This document shows positions 15,924 to 30,845 of a stretch of DNA of 47,684 nucleotides, piece by piece. This stretch comes from Hadesarchaea archaeon (GTDB lineage: Archaea; Hadarchaeota; Hadarchaeia; Hadarchaeales; Hadarchaeaceae), in contig JAUWBN010000006.1 of the NCBI GenBank assembly GCA_030601675.1, forward strand, positions 1-47,684. The letters are read 5' to 3'. How positions within the stretch are numbered: position 1 is the first letter of the stretch; each line of letters opens with the position of its first letter. A program made the position numbers and the translations under genes. The notes below the pieces were generated by a model. It ran no database searches, was not told the origin of the DNA, and saw only the letters and a list, made by a program, of their open reading frames with translations.

Positions 15924-18900
15924 TCAAATTTGGATTTTCTCGTATTTGTAAATAACGTGACCCGTTGGTGGGCAATTTGAAAGAGAGAGATTTATGCTAA
16001 CCGAAGCTGCGCCCTCACCAAAGGCGAACGTATAACCGCCCGGTGCTCCATCCACATAATTTACAACATTTTCGTCTAATGGACCGCTGTCATTTCTAGC
16101 GTCAACCAAGCTCCCGAACTGCCCACACCTTAGCAGCGATGGGGGCCCGCTCAGGTAATCAAATCTAAACCAAGAGGGGCTCAGCACTCCCTCTCCTATT
16201 TCCGTTTCCTCCGATTTCAGAATCCAACTTTCGCTGTCACCCTCAACGAACTCAAAACCGGGGGGTGCTTCACCTGGTCCCGGTCCAGGCCCAAGTTCAG
16301 GTGATTTGGCGCTGAGGATATTTGGGGGCTCGCAATAGTACATCCGGTAGGTACCATCCGGGAGTTCAACCACATCAGGATCGTAAATTCCACCTGCCAA
16401 CCTCGCTCCCTCCTCCTTCGTCCAAGTCAGACCGTCGGACGAAATAGCGCTGTAAATACCTCCCTCCTCCTCTCGACCGGGCGGAGCTACAGTATAAAAC
16501 ATTCGATAGGTCCCGTCTGAGAGCACAATCACGTCGGGGTCCATGCGCTGCGCTGGTATCCCGCTGATTGTTTCTCTTTCCCAAGTCCACCCGTTGTCTG
16601 ATGAAATTGCGCATCGAACGGTGTTCTGGTTCTCCTCAGGGCCCTTGTTGAACATGTCCCCGACGTAGTACATTCTGTATCTGCCATCTGGAAGCTCGAT
16701 GATTTCTGGGACGGAGATCGCCCCGTAGTCTGGCGCTCCTTCGCTTTCAAGTCTTATGCCTGATTCCTTCTCCCATATGAGTCCGTCTGTTGAAATCGCA
16801 CTGACAAACCATAAGTGCGCGTTAGGAGGTTGTCCTTCCTGTAAATCGTAAATCATCCTATAGCTGCCATTATCAAGTTGTATTATTGCTGGACAGAAGC
16901 CATTTTCAATCATTACCCCACTCTCTTTCGTCCACGCCAATCCATCCGATGAAATGGCGCTAAAAATGCTCAGGTGGTCGGGGTCGGGCCCCGAATTGTA
17001 ATACATCCGGTAAGTGTTATCTGGGAGCACGATGGTGCACATAGGCACTCCATTAGACACTCTTACGCCGCTTTCTTTCACCCAATCTCCACCAAGTCCC
17101 GGCCCCATCGGCATTTCAATCCCCTTAACGACCGATGCGACGGCAAGCGCTAGTACAACAACCCCTCCAACGATGATGCCCTTCCTCAGCTTCTCGAGCT
17201 TCTCGCCGGATGTTATTCTTCGAATCGCTTCCCACGCCAAGCACGGCAGAAACACCCACAGCAGGACGGTGAGGGGGATCCCAACTATAAACTTCGCGGC
17301 ACCCGGAATCACGTACACCGGCGCGAGCAAGATTTTGAGCGTGAGCGGCTCCTCCTCTTGGGCTTGTTGCTGGCCCCCCTGTTGGCCCCCTGGAAGCTGC
17401 TGATTACCAGGAAGTGGCTGCTCTGCAGCTAAAGCGAAATCGCCTTCTTTGGGGCCGGAGGGAAGATGGTTTCCAAGCAGGCTAAACTTCTCGCTCAATG
17501 CATATGCTCGCAGGCTCGGACGGCTGAAGATGAGCTTAAACAGCTGCTCGTTTTCCAAAATTTGTGTGCGCTCGTGCTCCTCCGTGCTTGCAAGTGCGTA
17601 AATATTCTCCCCCACCTGTTGTTGCCCCATGTACCATTCGGCGGCTAGCTCTGAGGCGTTAATTTGCCCCCCGGATGGCCCTCCTAACATGCTAAGGTGC
17701 GTTATCACCTCTCCTCCCTGAATGGTCCCCTTCAGCCCGACAGCATCCGGCCAGTAAATAAATCGCTCACCGCTTCCGAAAACGTAAACATCGCCGAACT
17801 GTTGGTGAAATTCCTGCAGGGCGTTGTATTCCTCCATTGTTATCGTCGGTTGAAGTTGACGAATTTCACCTTCTTCCCAAACGAAAGTGTGGCAGGCGCG
17901 TACTTGCTGAACCACGACGAACAAGAGCAAGCACAGGAAAACGGCACACCCAGCCATCGTGACAACCCTATGAGATCTCAAGCGGCCTTTGCCTAGTAAC
18001 GCTTGGAGGTTTTTCCCCGCCCTCCAAAGCAGCGCTCCAACCCCCTCAACGAGACCGACCGCCGCTAGCAGCACCATTGGTGTAGCTAGCATTATGACGA
18101 ACCTCCAATTATCGTATGCGACCCAAGTCTGTGCCATTATCAGGGCGCTCATACCCCACGCCAGCAGGAAGAAATCGGCCGGCTTTCTGCGATATGCTGC
18201 AATCCCCGCGCCGATGGCTGCGAGTACCAGCAATAACTGCCCGATATAATCGTTGTAGAGCACATGTAGCACCCCCTCCGGCCCCTGACCTCCTGGTGGC
18301 TGCTGTAGCTCTCCCTGGGCCACTAGGGTTGCTGCCTGCCCCTCGCCCGCCATGCCTCCTATCGTCCCCAGCTTCCCGATGTAAAAGTACCCGCAGATGA
18401 GGGCGACGGGTATCGCGATGATAATTGCAGCTTTGAGCTCACGCCAGGGTATGCGCCTGCGGTAGGCGAGCAAGAACGCGAGGTAACAGATGTACGCAAT
18501 GACCAAGGTGCCGAATGCCAATTCGTGTGTTAGCCCGACCACACCGAGCGCGATTCCGGCGACGACAAAATCTAGCTTCCTCTTACTCTCCAGCCCACGC
18601 CATAGGAAGAGCACGGGCAGAGGGGCCAGGGCCACGCCAAACGCATTCTTTTGGAGTTCGCCCATCATTCGGAAGCTGCCGGGGACGAAAGCGGAGAGAA
18701 AAGCTGCCGCTAAGGCCGTCGCGTCGTTCTTCGTCAGCCTCCTTACCATCAGAAAAGTCGTCAGGGCAACTAGCCCCGAAGCTAGCGCGGTGGCGATATT
18801 GAAAGATGTCATCAGCGAGACGCCGAACGCTGAGAGTATTGTACAGACCCCGGCGGCGAAGTGGAAGAAAACTGGAGGGGATGAAAGAAATGGGTTCGAG

Positions 18901-19112
18901 GGGTAGTGGTCGAGCAGGTAGCCCACGTGGAAGAGGTGATAGGGCCCGTCCCTGCCCAAGGGGAGCCCGTGCCCGAGGGTCACCGAGAGCCGCAGGTAGA
19001 GCGCGCCAGCGAATATCACCAACAAAACAATCAAGATAAGCGCCTGCTTCCTGCTCATCCGGAGAGGCGCGGTCACCAAACGTTTGAGCGCACCTATGCT
19101 AGGTTTCACCAC
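15924..19112 (-). CDS. Large membrane protein: GT-C-like polytopic domain fused to a five-bladed beta-propeller (glycoside-hydrolase-like)
   Basis: 1062 aa. First extracellular loop carries GRDGPYH, followed by many TM helices, Gln/Gly/Pro linkers and two further TMs. Then come five repeats of (S.DG..)W.KE.G...P.(V/I)I.L.DG.YRM.Y. Confidence 0.65.
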   Translation of the reverse strand: MVKPSIGALKRLVTAPLRMSRKQALILIVLLVIFAGALYLRLSVTLGHGLPLGRDGPYHLFHVGYLLDHYPSNPFLSSPPVFFHFAAGVCTILSAFGVSLMTSFNIATALASGLVALTTFLMVRRLTKNDATALAAAFLSAFVPGSFRMMGELQKNAFGVALAPLPVLFLWRGLESKRKLDFVVAGIALGVVGLTHELAFGTLVIAYICYLAFLLAYRRRIPWRELKAAIIIAIPVALICGYFYIGKLGTIGGMAGEGQAATLVAQGELQQPPGGQGPEGVLHVLYNDYIGQLLLVLAAIGAGIAAYRRKPADFFLLAWGMSALIMAQTWVAYDNWRFVIMLATPMVLLAAVGLVEGVGALLWRAGKNLQALLGKGRLRSHRVVTMAGCAVFLCLLLFVVVQQVRACHTFVWEEGEIRQLQPTITMEEYNALQEFHQQFGDVYVFGSGERFIYWPDAVGLKGTIQGGEVITHLSMLGGPSGGQINASELAAEWYMGQQQVGENIYALASTEEHERTQILENEQLFKLIFSRPSLRAYALSEKFSLLGNHLPSGPKEGDFALAAEQPLPGNQQLPGGQQGGQQQAQEEEPLTLKILLAPVYVIPGAAKFIVGIPLTVLLWVFLPCLAWEAIRRITSGEKLEKLRKGIIVGGVVVLALAVASVVKGIEMPMGPGLGGDWVKESGVRVSNGVPMCTIVLPDNTYRMYYNSGPDPDHLSIFSAISSDGLAWTKESGVMIENGFCPAIIQLDNGSYRMIYDLQEGQPPNAHLWFVSAISTDGLIWEKESGIRLESEGAPDYGAISVPEIIELPDGRYRMYYVGDMFNKGPEENQNTVRCAISSDNGWTWERETISGIPAQRMDPDVIVLSDGTYRMFYTVAPPGREEEGGIYSAISSDGLTWTKEEGARLAGGIYDPDVVELPDGTYRMYYCEPPNILSAKSPELGPGPGPGEAPPGFEFVEGDSESWILKSEETEIGEGVLSPSWFRFDYLSGPPSLLRCGQFGSLVDARNDSGPLDENVVNYVDGAPGGYTFAFGEGAASVSINLSLSNCPPTGHVIYKYEKIQI
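16330..17087 (-). repeat. Five propeller-blade repeats with Asp-box-like motifs inside the 1062-aa protein
   Basis: YRMYY, YRMIY, YRMYY, YRMFY and YRMYY alternate with ISSDGLAW, ISTDGLIW, ISSDNGWTW and ISSDGLTW. Boundaries approximate. Confidence 0.8.
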
Positions 19113-19176
19113 GCGATTACCCCAGAGACTATACCTATTAGCTTAAAATTATGTAAACGCTTAAGTCCGTACCGAA

Positions 19177-20625
19177 GTGATTCATACGGGTGAGCGAGTG
19201 AAGCGCGAGCGTTGGAAGAGCAACTTCAGCGAGTGGTTCAGCGGCATCCTGCGCAGTGCCGACATCATGGAGACCCGCTACCCGGTCAAAGGGCTCTTCG
19301 TCTGGCTCCCCTACGGGCTGAAGCTCCGCAACCATGTATTTGCGATCATGCGCGAGCTGCTCGAGCGGAGCGGGCACCAAGAGGTACTCTTTCCCCAGCT
19401 CATCCCTGAAAACATCTTCAAGAAGGAAGCTGAGCACATCCGGGGCTTCGAGGAGCAGGTCTACTGGGTGACGCACGGCGGGAAAGACAAGCTCGATGTC
19501 AAGCTCGCGTTGCGCCCGACAAGCGAAACCTCCATTTACCCCATGTTCGCGCTCTGGATCCGCTCCCATGCCGACCTCCCGATCAAGATCTACCAGATCG
19601 TCAACATCTTCCGCTACGAAACTAAGATGACCAAACCAATGATCAGGCTGCGGGAAGTGACGACATTCAAGGAAGCTCACACCGCCCACGCCAAGCCCGA
19701 GGAGGCAGAGGCGCAGGTGCGGGAGGCTGTGCACATTTACAAGCGTTTCTTCGACGAGCTGGGGGTGCCCTATGTCGTGACCAAGCGCCCTCGGTGGGAC
19801 ACCTTCGCTGGCGCCGAATACTCGCTCGCCTTCGACACGCTGGCACCCGATGGACGGACGTTGCAAATAGGCACGGCCCACAACCTCGGGCAGAACTTCG
19901 CGAAGGTATATGAGCTCAAGTACGAGGCCCCCAACGGGAAGCATCACTACGTCTACCAGGCCTGCTACGGTGTTTCCGAGCGGGTGATAGCCGCGGTGAT
20001 GATGGCGCACGGCGACGATGTTGGTCTCTGCTTGCCACCCAATGTTGCGCCAATTCAGGTCGTGATCGTGCCGATTCCATTCAAAGGCAGGGAAGTTCCG
20101 GTCGAGCAGATTGCAACCGCGATCAAAAACGAACTCGCAGCGGCGGGCTTGAGGGTCCATCTCGACGAGCGTGACCTCCGCCCCGGCAACAAGTTCTACT
20201 ACTGGGAACGCCGGGGGGTTCCGCTGAGGCTCGAGGTGGGGCCCGAAGACGTGAAGAAGGAGCAGGTGACCGTGGTCAGGCGCGACACCGGTGAAAAACA
20301 AGCGATCGCCAAGGGGGCGCTCAAGACCAAGGTCAAGCAGTTGCTCGAGGAAATCACAGGTGACATACGCAAACGAGCATGGAAATCCTTCCACGAGTCC
20401 GTAAAGGATGCCTCCGACACGGAGACGATCAAGCGGGTGATTGAGAAGCGTGGGGGAATAGCCCGTATGCCTTGGTGTGGAGGAAAAGCGTGCGGGAAGG
20501 CGCTAGAGGAGCAAACGGGCGGGGACCTGCTTGGGGAGGAATTCGACGGCAAGACCCCGTCTGGTGCTTGTCCAATTTGCTCCAAACGGGCGAAAGTTAG
20601 TGTGCTGATCGCTCGAACCTATTAA
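19177..20625 (+). CDS. proS: Proline--tRNA ligase, archaeal/eukaryal type
   Basis: NFSEWF, LRPTSET, FRYETK, EAHTAH, GTAHNLGQNF and a C-terminal Zn domain (WCG..C, CPIC) ending ARTY. Confidence 0.97.
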   Translation: MIHTGERVKRERWKSNFSEWFSGILRSADIMETRYPVKGLFVWLPYGLKLRNHVFAIMRELLERSGHQEVLFPQLIPENIFKKEAEHIRGFEEQVYWVTHGGKDKLDVKLALRPTSETSIYPMFALWIRSHADLPIKIYQIVNIFRYETKMTKPMIRLREVTTFKEAHTAHAKPEEAEAQVREAVHIYKRFFDELGVPYVVTKRPRWDTFAGAEYSLAFDTLAPDGRTLQIGTAHNLGQNFAKVYELKYEAPNGKHHYVYQACYGVSERVIAAVMMAHGDDVGLCLPPNVAPIQVVIVPIPFKGREVPVEQIATAIKNELAAAGLRVHLDERDLRPGNKFYYWERRGVPLRLEVGPEDVKKEQVTVVRRDTGEKQAIAKGALKTKVKQLLEEITGDIRKRAWKSFHESVKDASDTETIKRVIEKRGGIARMPWCGGKACGKALEEQTGGDLLGEEFDGKTPSGACPICSKRAKVSVLIARTY

Positions 20626-21503
20626 AGGCTCGTCAAGGCTCCTAGAATCTCTTTCTCGGAGGGGAAGCCGGTGGGGCCCTTATACTTTATCTTCAGCCCC
20701 GCTGCAGCGGTTGCAAATTTTGCCGACTCCAACGCGTCACGCGTGGCGATATGCCTGGCTAGGAACGCAGCGCCGAAGACATCGCCAGCGCCGGTCAAAT
20801 CCTTGGCATCGACTTTCAGGGACTCTATTTTGACCAGCCCCTCGTCGCTGAGCACCATCGAAGCATCCTCCCCTCTGGTCAAGATCGCAATTTTTGGTCC
20901 CATCGCTCTAAGGCTCTCGAGGACCTCCTTGGGACCGCCCCTGAGCGCCCTCACTTCCTCTTTCCCTATTTTTACTATGTCGACATGTTTCAGAAATCCG
21001 CCAAGCTCACGGGATTTGATCTCGACCTTTCCCTCCTTGCTTATCTCCCTCAGAAGCCCCTGGGGGTCGAGCATGACGAGGTTCGACTCACGCTTGATCG
21101 CCTTGAGCACATCAGGCGTTATCTCGTTGGCGATTGGAGAAACGTAGAAGCTTTGGGCGTCACTATAAGCGGCGGGGATATCGTCGGGTGAAATTCCCGG
21201 GGCCACGTGTTTGCAAACTTGCTTGCGATTGCCCGCCTCGTCGTAGGTGTTCTCAAAAGTCGTGGTATACTCACCCGCCACCATGATGCCCTCGGTGTCT
21301 AGGCCGAGCTTGCTGTAAATCGGGGGAAACTTCTCGAGGAAATCAGCGCCAACTTTCGAGACAACGCCAACGTTTTTCCTCAGGGCCGCGAACGTGAGAC
21401 CCGCATAAGTCGGCGCCCCGCCGAGGGCATTTTCGATGACACCCCAAGGTAGCACGTTCACATCGATCGCTACATGCCCGATCACGATGGTTTCGAACTG
21501 CAT
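20622..21503 (-). CDS. PfkB-family carbohydrate kinase (possibly myo-inositol kinase)
   Basis: LGGAPTY, LDPQG and DLTGAGDVFG; 1 nt downstream of ino1. Substrate inferred from context only. Confidence 0.85.
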   Translation of the reverse strand: MQFETIVIGHVAIDVNVLPWGVIENALGGAPTYAGLTFAALRKNVGVVSKVGADFLEKFPPIYSKLGLDTEGIMVAGEYTTTFENTYDEAGNRKQVCKHVAPGISPDDIPAAYSDAQSFYVSPIANEITPDVLKAIKRESNLVMLDPQGLLREISKEGKVEIKSRELGGFLKHVDIVKIGKEEVRALRGGPKEVLESLRAMGPKIAILTRGEDASMVLSDEGLVKIESLKVDAKDLTGAGDVFGAAFLARHIATRDALESAKFATAAAGLKIKYKGPTGFPSEKEILGALTSL

Positions 21504-21504
21504 G

Positions 21505-22578
21505 CTATCGCTCCCTCCTGCCGGCTATAAAATCCTCAACGGCCTGCTTCGCGTCCGTATCTGACATCTGAACGGGTGGGTGCTTGAAGAAATAGGCCGA
21601 GATACCAATCAGCGGTCCGGCGATGCCTCGATCTAGAGCGAGTTTCACGCCCCTTATGGCGTCGATCACAACACCCGCGCTGTTCGGGGAATCCTCGACC
21701 GAGAGTTTCACATCGATGCTAAGGGGCACGTCCCCGAATTTCCTGCCCCGCATGTAGATGTAGCACACCTTGTTGTCCTTCAGGAAGGAAACGTAGTCGC
21801 TGGGGCCGATTCGAAGGGGGATCTCGTAGGGCACTTGGCTTGAAACCGCTTCCGTCTTGCTCACGCGCTTCGAACTCAGGCGTTCCTCTTCGATCATGTT
21901 CAGAAAATCTGTGTTCCCACCTATGTTCAGCTGGTAACTCTCCTCGAGCTTGACTCCCCGGTCGATGAATAGCTTTGCGAGCATGCGATGGAGGATCGTC
22001 GCCCCGACTTGAGATTTGATGTCGTCACCCGCGCAGGGCAGCTTGGCATCCTCGAAGCGCTTCCCCCACTCCTTACCCGAAGCTATGAATTCTGGGATGC
22101 AGTTGATAAATCCGCATCCCGCCTCGATTGCCTGCTGCGCGTAGTAGCGGGATGCCTCGTAGCTCCCGACTGGCAGGTAGCTTATTAAGATATCCGCGCC
22201 CTTGTCTTCGAGCGCTCGGGCGACGTTCACTGGCTTCTGCGTGGGGTCGACCGGTATCACTGGTTTAAGGTATCTGCCCAAGCCATCCAGTGCTTGGGCC
22301 TTCATCACCTCAACACCCAGCCTTGAAACGTCGCTAAATTTGACCGTGCAATTTGGGGGGGCGAATATGGCTTCCGCGAGATCCCTGCCAACTTTGTTCG
22401 CGTCAACATCGAATGCCGCGACAAACTCGATGCTCCGGATGTGGTAGCCGCCGAAGTTCACGTGCATCAGGCCCGGCACGAACTGATCCTCGCGTGCATT
22501 TTTATAGTACTCAACGCCTTGAATGAGCGAGGAAGCGCAGTTCCCCACACCCGTTATCGCTACTTTTATTTTAGCCAT
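21505..22578 (-). CDS. ino1: myo-Inositol-1-phosphate synthase
   Basis: [36 protein letters not shown] and EDSPNSAG. Confidence 0.97.
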
Positions 22579-22602
22579 TGAATCACCATATCTGATCTAA
22601 GA

Positions 22603-22983
22603 TTAGAGGATATCTTCTAACATGAAGAGATAAAACTTTCCATCCATTTCACAAGCGAAACCCACATCTGATGTTTTGCCGTGGTATTTGAGTAAGCCCT
22701 CTAGCTGTGAACGTCTAATGTGATAGCTATGACCTGATTTAACATCTATGAACAGTTTCCTCCCAGCCCGCTCGGCGTGGACATCGATTATTTTCTGTCC
22801 ACCTATGGGTTCCAAGCGCCAACCGTGTAGAGCAAGTAACTCCGACAATTTTCTCTCTGCGCGCTTCCACTTGCGGGCCTTCGTTTCACCCAGCATAGCC
22901 TGACATGAAGGACACCTTTTAGGTTTCCCCCGTGGGCGCCACTCGTATCCACAATTTTCGCAACGCATATTTGTTACAACCAT
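22603..22983 (-). CDS. Zn-ribbon plus PD-(D/E)XK (Hjc-like) nuclease-fold protein
   Basis: C.NCGYEW.PR..PKRCPSC Zn ribbon, then AE..L...L..HGW, IIDV and FIDVK. More AT-rich than its neighbours. Confidence 0.65.
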   Translation of the reverse strand: MVVTNMRCENCGYEWRPRGKPKRCPSCQAMLGETKARKWKRAERKLSELLALHGWRLEPIGGQKIIDVHAERAGRKLFIDVKSGHSYHIRRSQLEGLLKYHGKTSDVGFACEMDGKFYLFMLEDIL

Positions 22984-23053
22984 ATTTCAACTTTGGAGAT
23001 AGCTCATGAAATAAACTATTTAAGGCTTGTGGTAAAGGTGAATTGGGTTTCCT

Positions 23054-23374
23054 TTGGCGATTCGGAGGTTGAAGAAAAAGACGACCGCGGAGCTGTTATG
23101 GCCCTATTTTTTGAAGCTCCTGAAAAAGCGCCCGATGTACGGGTATGAACTACGACAAGAGGTGATCAAGCAATTCGGGTGGAAACCCGCGACCGTTACC
23201 TCCTACCTTGTGCTCTACCGCCTCCAGCACGGGGGCTACGTCACGATAGCGTGGCGAGAGCAGCGAGGCAAGCCCGCGCGCAAGTACTATAAGTTAACGA
23301 AGAAGGGCGAGGAACTGCTGGAGGAAGGGATAAAATACCTAAAGGAGTTCAGCTCGAAACTTTCTGGAAAGTAG
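23054..23374 (+). CDS. PadR-family transcriptional regulator
   Basis: PMYGYEL, Y..LYRL..GGYV and PARKYYKLTKKG. Confidence 0.9.
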   Translation: MAIRRLKKKTTAELLWPYFLKLLKKRPMYGYELRQEVIKQFGWKPATVTSYLVLYRLQHGGYVTIAWREQRGKPARKYYKLTKKGEELLEEGIKYLKEFSSKLSGK

Positions 23375-23965
23375 TCAAGGCAGGCGGAGCTTCGCGACGA
23401 ACAACCTCTGAGCCACGGTGAGATGGGTCAGAATTACGATTAGAACCACTGCGTATTGCGTATACCCAATCAACGCCCCGATGGCTAGGATGAGGATCCG
23501 CTCACCCCGCTCGGCTATTCCCACATCGAGCTTGCCTGAGCCGGCTGCTTCTGCCCTGACGCGGGTGTAGCTGACCATTAAGCTTCCAGCGATGGCTAGA
23601 GTCCCCCATGCCCAGCCAGGCAGAAGACCCGCTTCAGCGAGCCCACCGTTGATGAAAGCGTAGATGATGCCCGCAAAAATCAAGAAATCCACATACCGAT
23701 CGACGACTGAGTCGAGCACTCCCCCGAACGCTGTCTCTCTGCCGATCACCCTAGCAACAGCGCCGTCGATGATGTCAAAAAACCCACAGACGATGAGAAC
23801 AAACCCAGCCCAAAGTTGCATCCCGTACGCGAACAGCATGGCCGCAATGACACCGACGACCAGCCCAATTAGAGTAAAAACATTCGGGGAAAGGCCGGTC
23901 CGCGCGAAGGCTCTGGCCAAGGGTTCCGTCAGCTCCTCTACTCGCTCCCGAACCCTACTCAGCAT
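23375..23965 (-). CDS. CDP-alcohol phosphatidyltransferase, probable archaetidylinositol phosphate synthase
   Basis: SPN.FT, DIIDGAVAR...T.FGGVLDSVVDR, SY.R.RAE and GIAERGER; next to ino1. Confidence 0.88.
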   Translation of the reverse strand: MLSRVRERVEELTEPLARAFARTGLSPNVFTLIGLVVGVIAAMLFAYGMQLWAGFVLIVCGFFDIIDGAVARVIGRETAFGGVLDSVVDRYVDFLIFAGIIYAFINGGLAEAGLLPGWAWGTLAIAGSLMVSYTRVRAEAAGSGKLDVGIAERGERILILAIGALIGYTQYAVVLIVILTHLTVAQRLFVAKLRLP

Positions 23966-27023: not shown

Positions 27024-30000
27024 CTAGGTCTGCACGGTAAATGTCCAAACGGAAGACTCGTTCTCATTACCTGCTTTATCGATCGCGATTACCTTCCAGG
27101 AGTAATTATCATCTGCCAGACCTGTGGTCGGGGTGTAGGTGTTTTCGGGTGCCGCAAGGGTGACATTGATCTCAGGCGATGAGAAGTCCGAACTGTTGTC
27201 GACGAGCAGGCGATGCTCCGCTGCCCCGGCGCCAACCGTCCACTCAAACGTTGGGGTGTTATTGCTCGTTGTCGTCCCATTTTCTGGTGCGTGGAGCGTT
27301 GCCGCTGTGGGTAGAGTGGTATCAACGACGAACGTCCATACCGACGAGGAGTCTTGGCTTCCCCCGACAATCGCGATTACCTTCCAGGAGTAGTTGTCAT
27401 CGCGTAAAGCATTCTCATCGGCCACCACGTAGCTGTCGATTATCCCGAGCCGGACGTTCTCTTCAGGCGATAAAAAGTCAGCATCATTATCCACAAGCAG
27501 GCGATAATTATCTGCATTACCTTCAGCCCACCCAAAAGTTGGAGTGTTGTCGTTCGTGATCGTCCCATCAGCTGGTGCGCTAGGCGTTGGGGCTCTCGGC
27601 GGCGCCCTGATGATGAGCTTGTAGTTGTCTGACCACCCGCTCGCGTTACCAGTCCGATCGAAAGCTTGAACGCGCCAGTAATAGGTGCCGTTGTGGGAGA
27701 AGAGATACGTGTATGAGTTTTCCTTGATGTCGGAGTTGTCGTGCACGTAAGGTGGGGAGAAACTCACCTCATCGTCGATTTGGGTTCCATAGGTCACGTT
27801 GGGTTCAGGCTCCGTCCATGCGAATGTAGTTTGTAAAGTGTCGAGCTCAAAGTTGTTCTCTGGCTCGCGGAGCTGCGGACTCCCTGGCACCTGGGTGTCG
27901 ACGACGAAGGTCCACGTGGGAGACCACCCGAGCTCGGTGTTGTCAGCTCTGAATGCCATAACCCGCCATGAGTAAGTGTCATCTACCAAGGCGTTCTCAT
28001 CCGGTATCGTATGCGTAACAGTAGAAATGTTTTCTCTTATCTCGGGTGAGGTAAAGTCTGCATCGTTGTCCACCCATAGCTCGTATTTCACCGCATCAAC
28101 AGCACCCGACCACACAAAGGTCGGAGTGTTGTCGCTCGTGGCTGTGTTATCCGTGGGTGAGGTCAACGAAGGCTCATGGTAGACCTTCACCACCTTGACC
28201 AAGCCGTTTGAGCTTGTGTAAGCCACCCCAATGAAATCTGGGATAGTTCCTCTCCCTTCGAAAACGCGCATGAGTATAGGTAACCCGTGTTCCGTAGGGG
28301 CGGTCAGCTGTGCGTGGGTCTGATCCCATGTCGGTGCTTCCACCCAATCCGGCACGAGAATCCATAAGACTTGTGGTATTGCCGGGTCTGGTCTTAAACT
28401 GTAGTCAAGGATCCGCGTTATGTAACCCCCTTGATTGAAAAACGCCCTTACCCAGCCAGCTAAGTGAAGGGTTTCGTCATCCCTCGCTACATATGCCTCC
28501 CACGATTGAGGGTCGAAAAAAACGTTTTCGTCGCTGAAAGTGTAAAGTATTTTTCCATCTTGTATGCTCCCCGATGTGGTAGAATTTTGAACCCCTCCAC
28601 GACGAGTAGCCCAAATTGCTGTATTGTACAAGTATCGGTGGAAAATAACGTAGTCGATTCGAACTCTATAGTTGTCCCTGTAAGTTTTGAAATAAAAAGC
28701 GAGTTCGTTATCATCGGTTAAGGTTGGAAGGTATTGAACATCTGTGCGTCTACCGTTGATAGTCCAGTGGGATTTTAAGAAAATGCCTGTTGAATCCTCT
28801 ACGTAATAAACGTAGTCGGGTGGATAATAGGGCCTATCCTCATTCTCCCAAATCCCTATTTCCCCACGATCACCACCTGAGCCGTCCACCACAGATGCAC
28901 GCCTGGCAACACCTGTCATCAAATGTCCGAAGGACCACTCTATGGCGACCACTGAATTTTCGGGCGTGTTCTCGCGAAGCCAAGCGAAAGAGTCCATGAA
29001 CCCTTCGTCCAACCCATACCCATGCCACTCGGTCGGAGGGGTGGTGCGCCCAGCGACGGCGCGCGCATTGAAGATAAACGTTGTCGCGACTATGCAGACA
29101 CAAAATGCGATCACAACTGAGTCGTGGAGGAAGTGTTTTAGCCATTCTCCAAACTGTTCGAACGATAACCGCCAGACGAGAGAGACCAGCACCGCCGCGC
29201 CCACACCAGCTAGGACAGGCACAAAGGGCCACCACATCCGTTCGAATCGCACCTGCGCCAGCCCTGCTCCAGGCCATACCATCGCGGCGATGACGATCAA
29301 CCAAGAGAGGGACAGTAACCCCCAACGTTTTTTACGCCAACAAAGCATAACCAACGCTAAAACTGCTAAGAGGAAAACAAGTACAGTTAAAACAGCTGCA
29401 TTGCCTTGTTGAGACAAGCTGGTATTAGGATCTCCGCCATACATCCGGTAGACTGTATCCCCCCACGAGTTCGGCGCAGCTTCCTCCCCCGCGACCCTCC
29501 CAAATGAAATCCCCTCGCCAACGCCCCCAATCCCGACACCACCCAAGAGAGATCGGCCGAAGCTGACCCACATCATGGGGCTTTGTCCACCCAGTATGCA
29601 AAGTGCAAGCGTCATTACTGCCAGCATGCCAAGCACGTTGACTATTAAAGGGATATTTGTACGCACGCCTGTTAGAATCCGCATAAAGAGGGAGCTTATA
29701 GATGCACGATGTAAAAATAGCTCTATAAGGGCGGCAAGGATGAGCCCGCCTATTAAAATATAGACTAAATTCATCACGCTGCCGGGGGTCCCCCCTCCTT
29801 TAAAGATAGCCCCTATGAAACCTGTAAACAATAAGAAAACACCGGCTAGAATCACAGGTAACCAAGTTAGGCGTTCGCTGAGTAGGACTAAGAGTAGAAG
29901 TCCAATCACGATGGGGGCAATGTAGAGAGCCCCGGACCATGCCAACCCGAAAAGCCCGTATACGAGCCCCGCTAAGAGCGCAAACTTCGGCATCTCGCTC

Positions 30001-30554
30001 CGTGGGGCCTTGAACAGCTTTATTGTGAAGTAGATGGTCCATATTCCCAAGAGTAGCTGGATCGGCTCCCGGTCGAATGCTCCGACCTTGTGCCAATAGA
30101 TGCTCGAGGTTAGGGTAGCTGCGAAAAATGCTGCAGCACAACCACCGAGGTTTCCCCCAAGTTCCCTGCCGGTCAGGAAAATTGGGATGATCGAGAGGGC
30201 AAAAAGCAGTGGAGCCCAATAGCGAACCACATCCATCAGAGTTACGCTTGGGTTAATGGCGTGGACGCCCCCGTAGAGCATTACCGTTATCAGCGGTTGG
30301 GCTTGCTCCGTAAGGCCAACAGATGCTGCGTAAGGGGCGCGAGAGAGACGGTTATTTTCTACCATGCCGCGGGTTTCATCTATATCCACGGCGATGTCGT
30401 AGAACCATCCGCTGTCCGAGGTAGTCAGCGTGTCGTACTTTTCGCCCGGGATCAGAAGCACTGAAGTCGTAAAAGCCATCAGGGCAAGCAGGTAACCGAC
30501 GAGCAGCCATCGTCTGTAATTCAACCGTGCACCCACTAAACTGAGGTCAGCCAA
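27024..30554 (-). CDS. aglB: STT3/AglB-family oligosaccharyltransferase with a degenerate WWDYG motif (EWSFG) and four C-terminal Fn3/Ig-like repeats
   Basis: Polytopic N-terminus with SDSGWFY (first catalytic Asp position), GAFDRE (DxD/E), VAGEE (TIxE-equivalent position) and QVRF (conserved Arg). Soluble domain has WLRENTPENSVVAIEWSFGH...RRASVVDG and IDYVIF. Confidence 0.82.
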   Translation of the reverse strand: MADLSLVGARLNYRRWLLVGYLLALMAFTTSVLLIPGEKYDTLTTSDSGWFYDIAVDIDETRGMVENNRLSRAPYAASVGLTEQAQPLITVMLYGGVHAINPSVTLMDVVRYWAPLLFALSIIPIFLTGRELGGNLGGCAAAFFAATLTSSIYWHKVGAFDREPIQLLLGIWTIYFTIKLFKAPRSEMPKFALLAGLVYGLFGLAWSGALYIAPIVIGLLLLVLLSERLTWLPVILAGVFLLFTGFIGAIFKGGGTPGSVMNLVYILIGGLILAALIELFLHRASISSLFMRILTGVRTNIPLIVNVLGMLAVMTLALCILGGQSPMMWVSFGRSLLGGVGIGGVGEGISFGRVAGEEAAPNSWGDTVYRMYGGDPNTSLSQQGNAAVLTVLVFLLAVLALVMLCWRKKRWGLLSLSWLIVIAAMVWPGAGLAQVRFERMWWPFVPVLAGVGAAVLVSLVWRLSFEQFGEWLKHFLHDSVVIAFCVCIVATTFIFNARAVAGRTTPPTEWHGYGLDEGFMDSFAWLRENTPENSVVAIEWSFGHLMTGVARRASVVDGSGGDRGEIGIWENEDRPYYPPDYVYYVEDSTGIFLKSHWTINGRRTDVQYLPTLTDDNELAFYFKTYRDNYRVRIDYVIFHRYLYNTAIWATRRGGVQNSTTSGSIQDGKILYTFSDENVFFDPQSWEAYVARDDETLHLAGWVRAFFNQGGYITRILDYSLRPDPAIPQVLWILVPDWVEAPTWDQTHAQLTAPTEHGLPILMRVFEGRGTIPDFIGVAYTSSNGLVKVVKVYHEPSLTSPTDNTATSDNTPTFVWSGAVDAVKYELWVDNDADFTSPEIRENISTVTHTIPDENALVDDTYSWRVMAFRADNTELGWSPTWTFVVDTQVPGSPQLREPENNFELDTLQTTFAWTEPEPNVTYGTQIDDEVSFSPPYVHDNSDIKENSYTYLFSHNGTYYWRVQAFDRTGNASGWSDNYKLIIRAPPRAPTPSAPADGTITNDNTPTFGWAEGNADNYRLLVDNDADFLSPEENVRLGIIDSYVVADENALRDDNYSWKVIAIVGGSQDSSSVWTFVVDTTLPTAATLHAPENGTTTSNNTPTFEWTVGAGAAEHRLLVDNSSDFSSPEINVTLAAPENTYTPTTGLADDNYSWKVIAIDKAGNENESSVWTFTVQT
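27027..28172 (-). repeat. Four tandem ~95-aa Fn3/Ig-like repeats at the AglB C-terminus
   Basis: Recurring P.L..P.....NTPTF.W...Y.L.VDN..DF.SPE...YSW.V.A...S.VWTF.V. Near-identical DNA (ATCGCGATTACCTTCCAGGAGTA) at about 27082 and 27370. Confidence 0.85.
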
Positions 30555-30578: not shown

Positions 30579-30845
30579 TTACTCTTCTTTCTCGGTCTCG
30601 GGTTTGCTCTCTACCACGCTCGGCGCTGGAGCAGGCACCGGGGAGATTTCTTTGGTGCTAGCCATGATCCAACCCAGCCAGAAGCCCAAGCCAGCGAGGA
30701 TGAGCACCCCCGCAGTAATAGGCAGCGCAAATGCTAGCGTTCCCGGCCCCCAAGTGCCCCGTATATAGCCAAAGAAAATGTGAGCAACCGCTATCACTAC
30801 ACACACTACGCAGAGCAACGCTCCGATCATCCTTGAAGTCCCCAT
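30579..30845 (-). CDS. Small two-TM membrane protein directly upstream of aglB
   Basis: 88 aa, two hydrophobic helices and a Pro/Glu-rich tail; GGTGA RBS; TTTTTAAATA box upstream. Confidence 0.8.
   Translation of the reverse strand: MGTSRMIGALLCVVCVVIAVAHIFFGYIRGTWGPGTLAFALPITAGVLILAGLGFWLGWIMASTKEISPVPAPAPSVVESKPETEKEE

What the first reader, a model, noticed from the sequence alone, without database searches (positions are those of the whole stretch)
28926..28940. WWDYG motif of the OST replaced by EWSFG
The codons GAG TGG TCC TTC GGA (minus strand) sit exactly where WWDYG is expected, between WLRENTP.NSVV and GH...RRASVVDG. Two of the three Ser/Thr-binding residues are changed by multi-nucleotide differences, so a single sequencing error cannot explain it. 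The ORF is intact over 1176 codons, which argues against decay.
Basis: partly seen in the sequence, partly recalled or inferred. Interest (0 to 1): 0.8.

Follow-up and report, generated by a model that had tools for sequence, protein, structure and literature searches.

The report
Sugar-attaching enzyme with rebuilt recognition pocket
The only protein-glycosylating enzyme (oligosaccharyltransferase) of this deep-subsurface archaeon, and of its whole order, has swapped two of the three supposedly universal residues that read the Ser/Thr of the N-X-S/T glycosylation signal, while keeping its catalytic machinery, so it may follow a different acceptor rule.

Summary
Codons GAG TGG TCC TTC GGA (28940..28926, minus strand) encode EWSFG, residues 539-543 of an intact 1176-codon ORF. 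HMMER and MAFFT place them column for column on WWDYG of STT3/AglB.

The genome is a 0.94 Mb Hadarchaeales (Hadesarchaea) MAG, and this is its only real STT3 homologue.

- **Clade signature:** in 122 aligned clade members the motif is [Q59/E57]-W(122)-S(121)-[Y60/F59]-G(122)-H(120). Every Hadarchaeales locus that reaches the site carries it. The one Hadarchaeota genome outside the order has WWDYG.
- **Catalytic residues kept:** D47, D161-x-E163, E357 and R436 all align to the canonical columns.
- **Fold:** the AlphaFold model (pLDDT 90) matches yeast Stt3 at Z 37.9.
- **Independent runs:** contigs from another study show the same motif, with only a synonymous change.
- **Convergence:** a similar [DE]WSYGH arose separately in Methanobacterium paralogues, which sit beside a canonical copy.

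Best reading: an active oligosaccharyltransferase with a rebuilt +2 pocket. Whether the sequon rule changed is untested; my in-silico sequon tests were inconclusive. I rate it a new variant of a known kind, interest about 0.6.

The parts
27024..30554 (-). Whole ORF, 1176 codons plus stop: an STT3/AglB-type oligosaccharyltransferase with C-terminal Ig-like repeats. The start is uncertain: TTG codon 1, GTG codon 7, TTG codon 11 or ATG codon 26. The database copy P0002 begins at M26.
29046..30554 (-). Membrane domain, residues 1-503, with about 13 helices in the model; carries the catalytic loops EL1, EL2 and EL5.
   Evidence: AF2 model; Pfam STT3 N-terminal; hydropathy
30414..30416 (-). D47 in 'TTSDSGWFYD' (EL1), the first catalytic acidic motif. 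D in 121/122 clade rows and 30/31 canonical rows.
30066..30074 (-). D161-R162-E163 in 'GAFDREP' (EL2), the second DXD-type motif. Aligns to D-N-E of human STT3A/B.
29484..29495 (-). V354-A355-G356-E357 (clade consensus Y-A-S-E) in EL5, the TIXE/SVSE-type motif. E357 is 122/122 in the clade and aligns to E in 30/31 canonical rows.
29229..29249 (-). R436-F-E-R439-M-W441-W442 at the outer end of a transmembrane helix. R436 aligns to the conserved Arg of canonical enzymes (27/31). R439, W441 and W442 are clade-specific invariants.
28179..29045 (-). Periplasmic core domain, residues 504-792.
28923..28940 (-). E539-W-S-F-G-H544, the replacement of WWDYG(Y/H). The given finding is 28926..28940.
28881..28886 (-). 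D557-G558, invariant. Aligns to the D of the DGGK / DNXT motif position (V-D-N in STT3).
28719..28754 (-). G601-R-R-T-D605-V-Q-Y608-L-P-T-L612: invariant G-R-R, then a DK-like D-x-x-[R/W/Y]-x-x-x-[M/I/L/V] on helix 602-611.
   Evidence: position inferred, not superposed
27027..28178 (-). Residues 793-1176: about four Ig-like repeats (Big_13 / Rha78A-N-like), extracellular, with 11 N-X-S/T triplets. Many clade members listed lack this domain (700-830 aa, no Ig-domain Pfam hit).

Best explanation
The ORF encodes the single STT3/AglB-type oligosaccharyltransferase of a Hadarchaeales archaeon. It keeps the GT-C fold and every catalytic element: the EL1 Asp, the EL2 D-x-E, the EL5 Glu, the conserved Arg and the D-G after the motif. 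It therefore most likely still takes a glycan from a dolichyl-phosphate carrier and transfers it to Asn of secreted or surface proteins. The genome has a cis-prenyltransferase, one GT2 and eight GT4 enzymes to build such a donor.

What changed is the acceptor +2 pocket. WWDYG became [E/Q]-W-S-[F/Y]-G-H at the base of the order and has been held there since. My inference is that this pocket is rebuilt and functional, not decayed. The retained middle Trp, the Ser hydroxyl and the Glu/Gln side-chain oxygen can still offer hydrogen bonds. The neighbouring DK-like helix is kept and gains two invariant arginines. I lean to an altered or relaxed requirement at position +2 of the sequon rather than an unchanged one.

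Shown: homology, motif register, conservation, sole-copy status, retention of catalytic residues.

Inferred: catalytic activity, the donor, Asn as acceptor, and any change in specificity.
For: - **Register:** EWSFG lies on WWDYG.
- **Fold:** AF2 model pLDDT 90.1, pTM 0.90. The top 19 Foldseek PDB hits are all PglB/STT3/AglB. VIA-align gives yeast Stt3 8age_A Z 37.9 (rmsd 3.5, 516 aligned), human STT3A 37.2, AfAglB 3waj 32.9 and PglB 3rce 29.9, against ArnT 24.3.
- **Catalytic columns** in the 74-row alignment: D47 = D in 30/31 canonical rows, D161 = D 24/31, E163 = E 18 or D 9 of 31, E357 = E 30/31, R436 = R 27/31, D557 = D 31/31. All are 27/27 in clade rows except E163 (22 E, 4 D, 1 R).
- **Motif constraint** in 122 clade sequences of 32-76% identity: Q59/E57, W122, S121, Y60/F59, G122, H120.
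- **The one Ala exception** (EWAIGH) is a second paralogue in genome G030, which also has QWSFGH.
- **Sole copy in the own genome:** two PF02516 matches, the other being a PMT_2-type GT-C. No WWDxG occurs in any open frame longer than 117 aa.
- **Across the phylum:** 53 of 66 genomes have a match, nearly always one. 27 of the 29 fetched Hadarchaeales loci carry x-W-[S/A]-x-G; the other 2 are cut by contig ends. 51 of 57 loci from named Hadesarchaea/Hadarchaeota records carry it; the other 6 hold only the N-terminal part. None has WWD.
- **PF21436** (the core domain holding WWDYG) matches 0 of 65 genomes of the order and 1 of 1 outside it.
- **Donor pathway:** cis-prenyltransferase 1, GT2 1, GT4 8.
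- **Recurrence:** an independent [DE]WSYGH in Methanobacterium paralogues (73 of 110 parsed have Ser at the third position, 0 have a first Trp), which also keep the catalytic motifs.
- **Strain level:** in contigs from another study, 16 of the 26 listed differences in the OST domain are synonymous.
Against: - No experiment and no glycoproteome exists for any of these organisms.
- I had no model coordinates, so no distance between E539/S541 and the DK-like helix or a peptide could be measured.
- In my crude gene calls, N-X-S/T in 50 putative secreted proteins is no more frequent than composition predicts (103 observed, 91.5 expected, reverse pattern 99), and no other +2 residue stands out convincingly (N-x-W 20 against 11.5).
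- N and S/T are not co-conserved in the ectodomain alignment (ratio 0.96).
- Both sequon tests lack a positive control, so they neither support nor refute a changed sequon.
- Ser plus Glu/Gln could in principle still bind a Ser/Thr hydroxyl, which favours the 'unchanged sequon' rival.
- The gene scores far below NCBIfam archaeo_STT3 (52.5 bits against 450).
- Its sister group has lost the EL5 Glu, so functional drift occurs in this branch of the family.
Confidence: 0.5

Rival explanations
1. Same job, same sequon. The enzyme still recognises N-X-S/T, and [EQ]-W-S is simply an alternative hydrogen-bonding solution for the Ser/Thr hydroxyl that drifted in once and became locked by compensatory changes such as the G-R-R and R439/W441/W442 innovations.
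For: - The middle Trp, the Gly and the DK-like D...[MILV] are retained.
- Ser, Glu and Gln can all hydrogen-bond a hydroxyl (chemistry; inference).
- Putative secreted proteins are rich in N, S and T, with N-X-S/T at 0.70 per 100 aa against 0.22 in cytoplasmic proteins.
- The enzyme's own Ig-like tail has 11 N-X-S/T in 384 aa.
Against: - WWD is 31/31 in the canonical rows sampled. Passages of PMC4287180 describe it as present in all AglBs, which argues that Ser/Thr recognition normally does not tolerate replacement.
- The N-X-S/T excess in secreted proteins is explained by composition alone (o/e 1.13, reverse pattern equal).
Confidence: 0.3
2. A new acceptor class. The enzyme keeps GT-C chemistry but no longer glycosylates Asn in a sequon. 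It might modify another residue, a lipid or a cell-envelope polymer, or mainly hydrolyse the lipid-linked glycan.
For: - The acceptor pocket is the only conserved element that changed.
- Other GT-C enzymes of similar fold act on other acceptors: DPY19 Z 21, PMT Z 22, ArnT Z 24.
- The AglH-type initiating enzyme PF00953 is absent from 64 of 65 genomes of the order, with one sub-threshold hit.
Against: - STT3, AglB and PglB structures match far better than any other GT-C (Z 30-38 against 24 or less).
- The EL5 Glu and both acidic motifs used for activating the Asn amide are invariant.
- PF00953 is also absent from the control genomes of Haloferax volcanii and Methanosarcina acetivorans in the same search. 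From recall, not from a call, H. volcanii N-glycosylates starting from a GT2 on dolichyl monophosphate.
Confidence: 0.12
3. An inactive relic or purely structural protein, for example a scaffold displaying the Ig-like repeats.
For: - The defining motif is lost.
- The sister group shows real decay: motif HWE[LM]GY / PWPVGY / PFGIGH and EL5 Glu absent in 7/7 rows.
Against: - All catalytic residues are invariant across 122 sequences down to 32% identity.
- The new motif is itself almost invariant.
- Many members lack the Ig tail altogether.
Confidence: 0.05
4. Sequencing, assembly or binning artefact.
For: The source is a metagenome-assembled genome of 85.6% completeness.
Against: - The same motif appears in contigs of runs from another study.
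- It also appears in more than 100 homologues from many sources.
Confidence: 0.01

Closest known systems
Eukaryotic STT3 (yeast Stt3 8age/6ezn; human STT3A 6s7o, STT3B 6s7t)
   Same: - Best sequence and structure match: profile E 1.8e-20; Z 37.9 and 37.2.
- Same fold.
- Same D...D-x-E, EL5 Glu, Arg and V-D after the motif.
- DK-type rather than MI-type helix.
- Similar C-terminal strand ('ytSsnglvkvvkv' against 'YTTEHWLVRIYKV').
   Different: - WWDYG is replaced by [EQ]WS[FY]GH.
- No DNXT double sequon (V-x-D-G-x-E instead).
- Lys of DxxK is replaced by R/W/Y.
- Probably a single-subunit enzyme.
- Extra Ig-like repeats.
Archaeal AglB (Archaeoglobus fulgidus AglB-L 3waj/5gmy/7e9s; the canonical AglB of Hadarchaeota genome G001)
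   Same: - Homologous single-subunit archaeal OST: Z 30-33.
- Catalytic columns shared.
   Different: - AglBs carry WWD: 31/31 sampled.
- G001's copy (WWDYGY, 640 aa) lies next to an AglH-type gene and does not group with the clade in the tree.
- TIGR04154 score is 52.5 against a cut-off of 450.
Methanobacterium 'STT3 domain-containing protein' paralogues (M. paludis, M. congolense, M. aggregans, M. oryzae and MAGs)
   Same: - Near-identical replacement motif: DWSYGH 25 and EWSYGH 20 of 110 parsed.
- Catalytic motifs kept.
   Different: - Independent origin: they nest among methanogen-type WWD[FN]GH AglBs (96* branch) and share those enzymes' EL1/EL2/EL5 signatures.
- The third position is variable (S 73, D 10, other 27 of 110).
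- Several copies occur per genome, beside a canonical WWD[FY]GH AglB; for example M. paludis has both.
- In Hadarchaeales the variant is the only copy.
Bacterial PglB (Campylobacter lari 3rce/5ogl)
   Same: - Fold: Z about 30.
- It is the best Foldseek hit: 5ogl E 1e-17.
   Different: - MI motif instead of a DK-like one.
- WWDYG present.
- An extended D/E-X-N-X-S/T sequon (recalled).
Trypanosoma brucei STT3 paralogues with distinct acceptor and donor specificities
   Same: A precedent that STT3 variants differ in acceptor preference (passage of PMC5131992).
   Different: As far as I recall they keep WWD. The difference there is in flanking-residue preference, not in the +2 pocket.

Membership tests
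STT3/AglB/PglB oligosaccharyltransferase (GT66) | GT-C fold: multi-helix membrane domain plus a C-terminal periplasmic alpha/beta domain | tested here: met
   AF2 model pLDDT 90.1. VIA-align Z 37.9 to yeast Stt3 over 516 residues spanning model residues 7-792. Foldseek top 19 hits are all OSTs.
STT3/AglB/PglB oligosaccharyltransferase (GT66) | Pfam STT3 (PF02516) above the gathering score | tested here: met
   38.6 bits against 24.5, residues 87-246. 39 bits in the genome scan.
STT3/AglB/PglB oligosaccharyltransferase (GT66) | First and second acidic (DXD-type) motifs in EL1 and EL2 | tested here: met
   D47 is 121/122 in the clade and aligns to D in 30/31 canonical rows. D161-x-E163 aligns to D-N-E of STT3A/B.
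STT3/AglB/PglB oligosaccharyltransferase (GT66) | TIXE/SVSE motif Glu in EL5 | tested here: met
   E357 is 122/122 and aligns to E in 30/31 canonical rows in MAFFT. Caveat: HMMER against human STT3A put this loop in a different register.
STT3/AglB/PglB oligosaccharyltransferase (GT66) | WWDYG (WWDXG) motif | tested here: not met
   E-W-S-F-G in the window; [Q/E]-W-S-[Y/F]-G in 122 clade sequences; W-W-D in 31/31 canonical rows in the same columns. PF21436 core domain gives no match.
STT3/AglB/PglB oligosaccharyltransferase (GT66) | DK (DxxKxxx[M/I]) or MI motif helix next to WWDYG | tested here: inconclusive
   D605(121/122)-x-x-[R69/W23/Y9]-x-x-x-[M58/I18/L16/V13] on helix 602-611 lies at offset 66. 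DxxK lies at offsets 59-78 in 24 canonical relatives. hhalign of the C-terminal domains aligned only 49 columns and stopped before this helix. No coordinates were available.
STT3/AglB/PglB oligosaccharyltransferase (GT66) | DGGK / DNXTZNX[T/S] motif after WWDYG | tested here: inconclusive
   D557-G558 are invariant and D557 aligns to D in 31/31 canonical rows, but the rest is V-x-D-G-x-E, neither DGGK nor a double sequon.
NCBIfam TIGR04154 archaeo_STT3 (archaeosortase A-associated OST) | Score above the curated cut-off | tested here: not met
   52.5 bits against 450.
STT3/AglB/PglB oligosaccharyltransferase (GT66) | Transfer of a lipid-linked glycan to Asn of N-X-S/T | not testable with these tools
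   Needs a biochemical assay or glycoproteomics. The in-silico sequon statistics were inconclusive.
Other GT-C enzymes (PMT, ArnT, DPY19) | Closer structural or sequence match than to OSTs | tested here: not met
   ArnT Z 24.3, Pmt4 22.3 and DPY19 21.1, against 30-38 for OSTs. No PMT_2 Pfam hit for this ORF.

The most novel reading that the evidence does not exclude
Hadarchaeales have rewritten the acceptor code of N-glycosylation. Their only oligosaccharyltransferase uses an [E/Q]-W-S-[F/Y]-G-H pocket, together with a G-R-R-x-D-x-x-[R/W/Y] helix, to select something other than Ser/Thr at +2, or nothing at all.

The same solution evolved independently in Methanobacterium paralogues. That would define a second, recurrent class of OST acceptor pocket, and cultured organisms exist in which it could be tested.
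Probability: 0.3. Interest if true: 0.85.

Novelty: new variant of a known kind. Interest (0 to 1): 0.6.

Why it matters
- **The accepted rule.** WWDYG is treated as the universal signature of the OST catalytic subunit and as the structural reason for the N-X-S/T sequon in all three domains. Passages of PMC8342417 and PMC4287180 say so, the latter stating that all AglBs possess it.
- **What was already noted.** Variation had been reported only in extra paralogues (passage of PMC5131992 citing Kaminski 2013).
- **What is different here.** A whole archaeal order has no canonical copy, and the replacement is under tight constraint with intact catalytic residues.
- **If specificity changed.** This would be a natural experiment on how the sequon is read. 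It would also be a source of OSTs with new acceptor rules for glyco-engineering, and a warning that N-X-S/T-based glycosite prediction fails in some lineages.
- **If specificity did not change.** It would show that the Ser/Thr pocket can be built in a second way, which matters for mechanistic models of the enzyme.
- **Testability.** The Methanobacterium paralogues make the question testable in cultured species.

Tried and rejected
- **Desulfurococcales lead.** Four Desulfurococcales loci from the genome-contig scan (L090-L093) looked like a second lineage with the motif. Reading them showed canonical WWDYG; they had matched other search patterns. Rejected.
- **Sequon statistics in the own genome.** I used crude gene calling (897 genes) and a hydropathy-based 'secreted' set of 50 proteins that includes at least one mis-started cytoplasmic gene, LysRS. 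N-X-S/T o/e was 1.13 (103 against 91.5; reverse pattern 99), cytoplasmic 1.01. The strongest +2 residue was Trp at 1.73 (20 against 11.5), which is not convincing across 20 tests. There was no positive-control genome. Inconclusive.
- **Co-conservation of N with S/T at +2** in the ectodomain columns of A1, against 100 within-column shuffles: ratio 0.96, control patterns 0.95-1.10. Inconclusive.
- **Mutual information** between position 539 (E/Q) or 542 (Y/F) and all other columns only recovered subclade structure. Uninformative.
- **hhalign** of clade against canonical DK-type C-terminal domains aligned only 49 columns, ending at D-G. The DK-helix equivalence therefore rests on offset and secondary structure.
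I realigned with a faster MAFFT mode on sequences cut at 900 residues and built a 'quick' LG+G4 tree. It has no bootstraps and is midpoint-rooted, so it gives no direction of change.
- **Expression.** No RNA holder was listed, and the one RNA run of the probable source sample laid nothing. This is no evidence either way.
- **Literature.**
  - Searches for Hadarchaeota terms together with oligosaccharyltransferase listed 15 of 24 papers, none holding the OST term.
  - Searches for the motif strings EWSYG, QWSYG, DWSYG, EWSFG, QWSFG and WSYGH found 8 papers; the 7 listed are unrelated.
  - WWDYG/AglB searches were.
  - PMC12667266 held nothing on motif variants.
  - PMC4054257 (Jarrell 2014 review) is not held.
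  - Kaminski 2013, Magidovich and Eichler 2009, Maita 2010 and Nikolayev 2020 were not seen.
- **ESM Atlas** for the sister-group protein P0247 gave nearest clusters labelled Microcaldota. This is a lead only.
- **Cluster look-up** of 10 odd-motif proteins returned no organism names for the intermediates.
Full report
**What is in the sequence.** The minus strand of 28940..28926 reads GAG TGG TCC TTC GGA. These are residues 539-543, EWSFG followed by H544, of an uninterrupted ORF of 1176 codons at 27024..30554. The start is uncertain: TTG at codon 1, GTG at 7, TTG at 11 and ATG at 26 are all possible, and the database copy P0002 starts at M26.

Pfam finds the STT3 N-terminal family (38.6 bits, cut-off 24.5) and Ig-like domains at the C-terminus. 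NCBIfam's archaeo_STT3 model scores only 52.5 bits against a cut-off of 450.

**Is EWSFG really in the place of WWDYG?** Yes, by three independent alignments.
- phmmer against PDB sequences aligns residues 517-566 to human STT3B 582-631 and STT3A 503-546. The shared flanks are W-L-R-x-N-T-p-E before and R-x-x-x-V-D after, and e-w-s-f-g-h lies opposite w-w-d-y-g-y.
- A profile of 122 clade members gives the same register against STT3A (E 1.8e-20), STT3B and yeast Stt3.
- In a 74-row MAFFT alignment the three columns are W, W, D in 31 of 31 canonical rows and [E/Q/P], W, S in 27 of 27 clade rows.

Each of the two replacements needs at least two base changes. Logan contigs of two runs from a different study (X2, X3; 62-63% of sampled words) cover the site. 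Within 28926-28940 they differ only at 28926 (T>C), which turns GGA into GGG, both Gly.

**Whose gene is it?** The window is contig C35 of a 937,688-base, 35-contig genome of 85.6% estimated completeness and 55% G+C. Named homologues and loci come from Hadesarchaea / Hadarchaeota / Hadarchaeales MAGs.

In this genome PF02516 matches only two places: this gene, and weakly (20.7 bits) the ORF 15924..19112 (-), which Pfam assigns to PMT_2. A six-frame scan of the whole genome finds no WWDxG in any open frame longer than 117 aa; the two WWD.G strings lie in open frames of 30 and 82 aa.

**Is it a clade signature?** Yes.
- Of 246 proteins collected by the two large searches, 221 could be aligned at the site. 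138 read x-W-S-x-[GA] (QWSFG 39, EWSYG 36, EWSFG 28, QWSYG 24, rarer ones 11) and 1 reads EWAIG, making 139. 65 read WWDxG.
- Full-length x-W-S proteins score 277 bits or more against residues 1-720. Canonical WWD proteins all score 68 bits or less.
- In the 122-sequence alignment A1 (32-76% identical to the query), position 539 is Q 59 / E 57, W540 is 122/122, S541 is 121/122, position 542 is Y 60 / F 59, G543 is 122/122 and H544 is 120/122.
- In 66 Hadarchaeota species genomes, 53 have an STT3 match, almost always a single one.
- Of the 29 fetched loci from the window's order, 27 carry x-W-[S/A]-x-G and 2 are cut by contig ends.
- Of 57 loci from named records, 51 carry it and 6 hold only the N-terminal part. 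None has WWD.
- The single Ala exception (EWAIGH) is a second paralogue in genome G030, which also has QWSFGH.
- The only Hadarchaeota genome outside the order, G001, has a canonical 640-aa WWDYGY enzyme. It lies tail to tail with an AglH-type (PF00953) gene.
- The Pfam core-domain model that contains WWDYG (PF21436) matches G001 and none of the other 65 genomes. This model is not very sensitive, since it rings in only 3 of 14 control genomes.

**Is the rest of the enzyme intact?** Yes.
- The AlphaFold2 model of residues 1-792, built on A1, has mean pLDDT 90.1 and pTM 0.90.
- Foldseek's first 19 PDB hits are all PglB, STT3 or AglB.
- VIA-align gives yeast Stt3 Z 37.9 (rmsd 3.5 Å, 516 residues), human STT3A 37.2, A. 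fulgidus AglB 32.9 and C. lari PglB 29.9. Clearly lower come ArnT 24.3, Pmt4 22.3 and DPY19 21.1.

[quoted passage not shown] They map as follows in the 74-row alignment, with clade conservation from A1:

| Element | Clade (A1, n = 122) | Canonical rows (n = 31) |
|---|---|---|
| D47 | 121/122 | D in 30 |
| D161 | 121/122 | D in 24 |
| E163 | E 108, D 12 | E 18, D 9 |
| E357 | 122/122 | E in 30 |
| R436 | 122/122 | R in 27 |
| D557 | 122/122 | D in 31 |

HMMER aligned the EL5 loop to human STT3A in a different register, so the E357 equivalence rests on the MAFFT alignment and on its invariance.

Clade-specific invariants are R439, W441/W442, G601-R602-R603 and D605.

**The DK/MI helix.** In 24 of 65 canonical relatives a DxxKxxx[MILV] string lies 59-78 residues after the first Trp of WWD. 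In the clade, 66 residues after position 539, D605 (121/122) is followed by x-x-[R 69, W 23, Y 9]-x-x-x-[M 58, I 18, L 16, V 13]. The model places this on helix 602-611, which is followed by helix 615-629. This is inferred. hhalign could not align the domains beyond D-G, and I had no coordinates to superpose.

**Where does the clade sit?** A quick IQ-TREE (LG+G4, SH-aLRT only, 74 rows, 563 columns, midpoint root) gives these groupings:
- The x-W-S proteins form one group (28 rows, support 100).
- Its sister (98) is a group of 7 unnamed metagenome proteins with decayed motifs (HWELGY, HWEMGY, DWEIGY, PWPVGY, PFGIGH).
- Those 7 proteins have also lost the EL5 Glu in 7 of 7 rows. Their nearest ESM Atlas clusters are labelled Microcaldota, which is a lead only.
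- G001's canonical enzyme groups elsewhere, with P0165 (99).

**An independent second case.** One protein with EWSYGH (P0198/P0260) scored only 48 bits to the query and fell among methanogen-type WWD[FN]GH enzymes in the tree (support 96). It shares their EL1, EL2 and EL5 signatures rather than the Hadarchaeal ones.

Its 120 best relatives are 'STT3 domain-containing proteins' of Methanobacterium, including cultured M. paludis, M. congolense, M. aggregans and M. oryzae.
- Of 121 sequences, 110 could be parsed at the site. None has Trp at the first position.
- 73 have Ser, 10 have Asp and 27 have other residues at the third position. The commonest strings are DWSYGH (25) and EWSYGH (20).
- Several such proteins come from contigs of identical length, so they probably lie in one genome.
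- Methanobacterium also has canonical copies. All 111 parsed of 120 relatives of P0166 read WWD[FYL]G, including one from M. paludis.

The [D/E/Q]-W-S-[Y/F]-G-H solution therefore arose at least twice. In Methanobacterium it occurs in variable extra copies beside a canonical enzyme. In Hadarchaeales it is the tightly conserved sole copy.

**Can the cell make a donor?** The genome has one cis-prenyltransferase (285 bits), one GT2 (93 bits, on C29 about 2 kb from a GT4) and eight GT4-type enzymes in clusters on C9, C22 and C29. The AglH/ALG7-type phosphosugar transferase PF00953 is absent here and in 64 of 65 genomes of the order (one sub-threshold hit), but present twice in G001. The same search is also blank in the Haloferax volcanii and Methanosarcina acetivorans controls, so its absence is compatible with a GT2-initiated, dolichyl-monophosphate pathway (the pathway type is recalled, not tested here).

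The gene's neighbours are housekeeping genes: HisRS, Sua5/TsaC, ProRS, a methyltransferase, inositol-1-phosphate synthase and a CDP-alcohol phosphatidyltransferase.

**Does the proteome betray a different sequon?** I could not tell.
- In 50 hydropathy-defined 'secreted' proteins from my own crude gene calls, N, S and T are each enriched, but N-X-S/T is at composition expectation (103 against 91.5; reverse pattern 99). No other +2 residue is clearly enriched; Trp is 20 against 11.5.
- N and S/T(+2) are not co-conserved in the ectodomain part of A1 (0.96 of the shuffled expectation).
- Without a positive-control genome these results carry little weight.

**Selection at strain level.** Of the 40 differences listed between the window and the contigs of runs X1-X3 (54 more were not shown), 21 are synonymous and 19 are not. 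Within the OST domain 16 of 26 are synonymous; in the Ig-like tail 5 of 14 are. This is modest support for purifying selection on the enzyme part.

**Interpretation.** The passages I read say that WWDYG and DK/MI form the Ser/Thr-binding pocket (PMC8342417). They also say that all AglBs possess WWDYG (PMC4287180) and that some extra AglB copies vary in WWDXG (PMC5131992, citing Kaminski 2013). The detail that both Trp side chains and the Asp hydrogen-bond the +2 hydroxyl is recalled from the PglB structure paper, which I did not open.

Against that background, an order-wide, sole-copy enzyme with intact catalytic residues and a fixed [EQ]WS[FY]GH is best read as an active oligosaccharyltransferase whose +2 pocket was rebuilt. 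My estimates:
- Rebuilt pocket with an altered or relaxed +2 requirement: about 0.5.
- Pocket still selects Ser/Thr: about 0.3.
- Enzyme serves another acceptor: about 0.12.

By the family's own criteria it fails the WWDYG test. I therefore describe it as an AglB-derived variant that works like an OST, not as a canonical member.

**Limits.** No coordinates, no experiment and no RNA evidence were available. The tree is quick and unrooted. Key reviews and supplements could not be read.

Noticed in passing
window 15924..19112 (-): A second GT-C enzyme of 1062 aa. It has an N-terminal PMT_2 domain (39.7 bits; also a weak 20.7-bit STT3 hit), a Gln/Gly-rich linker and C-terminal repeats 'DG.YRMYY' with a faint GH32-N-like (beta-propeller) hit. 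It has no WWD-type motif and its function is unknown.
   Followed up: partly
window 27027..28178 (-): The OST carries about four Ig-like repeats (Big_13, Rha78A-N-like) with a recurring 'NTPTF.W ... DF.SPE ... Y.W.V.A ... W.F.VDT' pattern and 11 N-X-S/T triplets. In one search the clade splits into long forms (about 1060-1190 aa) with these repeats and short forms (about 700-830 aa) without. One contig of run X1 skips 99 bases (27269 to 27369) inside the repeats.
   Followed up: partly
window 30579..30845 (-): An 88-aa hydrophobic ORF lies 24 bases upstream of the OST gene on the same strand. It has no Pfam hit and a low coding score. It could be a small membrane partner or could be spurious.
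   Followed up: no
proteins P0135, P0247, P0258, P0252, P0142, P0144, P0268 (metagenome proteins): The sister group of the clade consists of STT3-like proteins of about 800-860 aa with an N-terminal extension of about 150 aa. Their motifs are decayed (HWE[LM]GY, DWEIGY, PWPVGY, PFGIGH) and the EL5 Glu is lost in 7 of 7 rows. Two of them (P0247, P0268) come from contigs of the same length, 250,561 bases. The nearest ESM Atlas clusters are labelled Microcaldota.
   Followed up: partly
G001:C10 (locus L098) and the phylum-wide search: The only Hadarchaeota genome with a canonical WWDYG AglB has an AglH-type (PF00953) gene tail to tail with it, plus a second copy elsewhere. PF00953 is missing from 64 of 65 genomes of the order that carries the variant motif. 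Loss of AglH and change of the motif coincide on the same branch, but this is a single evolutionary event.
   Followed up: partly
proteins P0269-P0387: There is a large expansion of STT3 paralogues in Methanobacterium with [D/E/S]-W-[S/D/M/V/G/N]-Y-G-H instead of WWDYG. Several occur per genome, next to a canonical WWD[FY]GH copy. I found no paper that describes them.
   Followed up: partly
G030:C1 (L014) and G030:C11 (L096): One Hadarchaeales genome has two copies of the variant OST: QWSFGH and EWAIGH. The latter is the only clade sequence without Ser at the third position.
   Followed up: yes
window 20622..23965: A cluster of a PfkB-family kinase, myo-inositol-1-phosphate synthase and, after a small gene, a CDP-alcohol phosphatidyltransferase. 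It looks like an archaetidylinositol (inositol phospholipid) synthesis set.
   Followed up: no
window 19138..20394 (-) versus 19177..20625 (+): A 418-codon open frame lies antisense to the prolyl-tRNA synthetase gene. It is a shadow ORF typical of 55% G+C DNA, not a gene (dropped by the coding score).
   Followed up: partly
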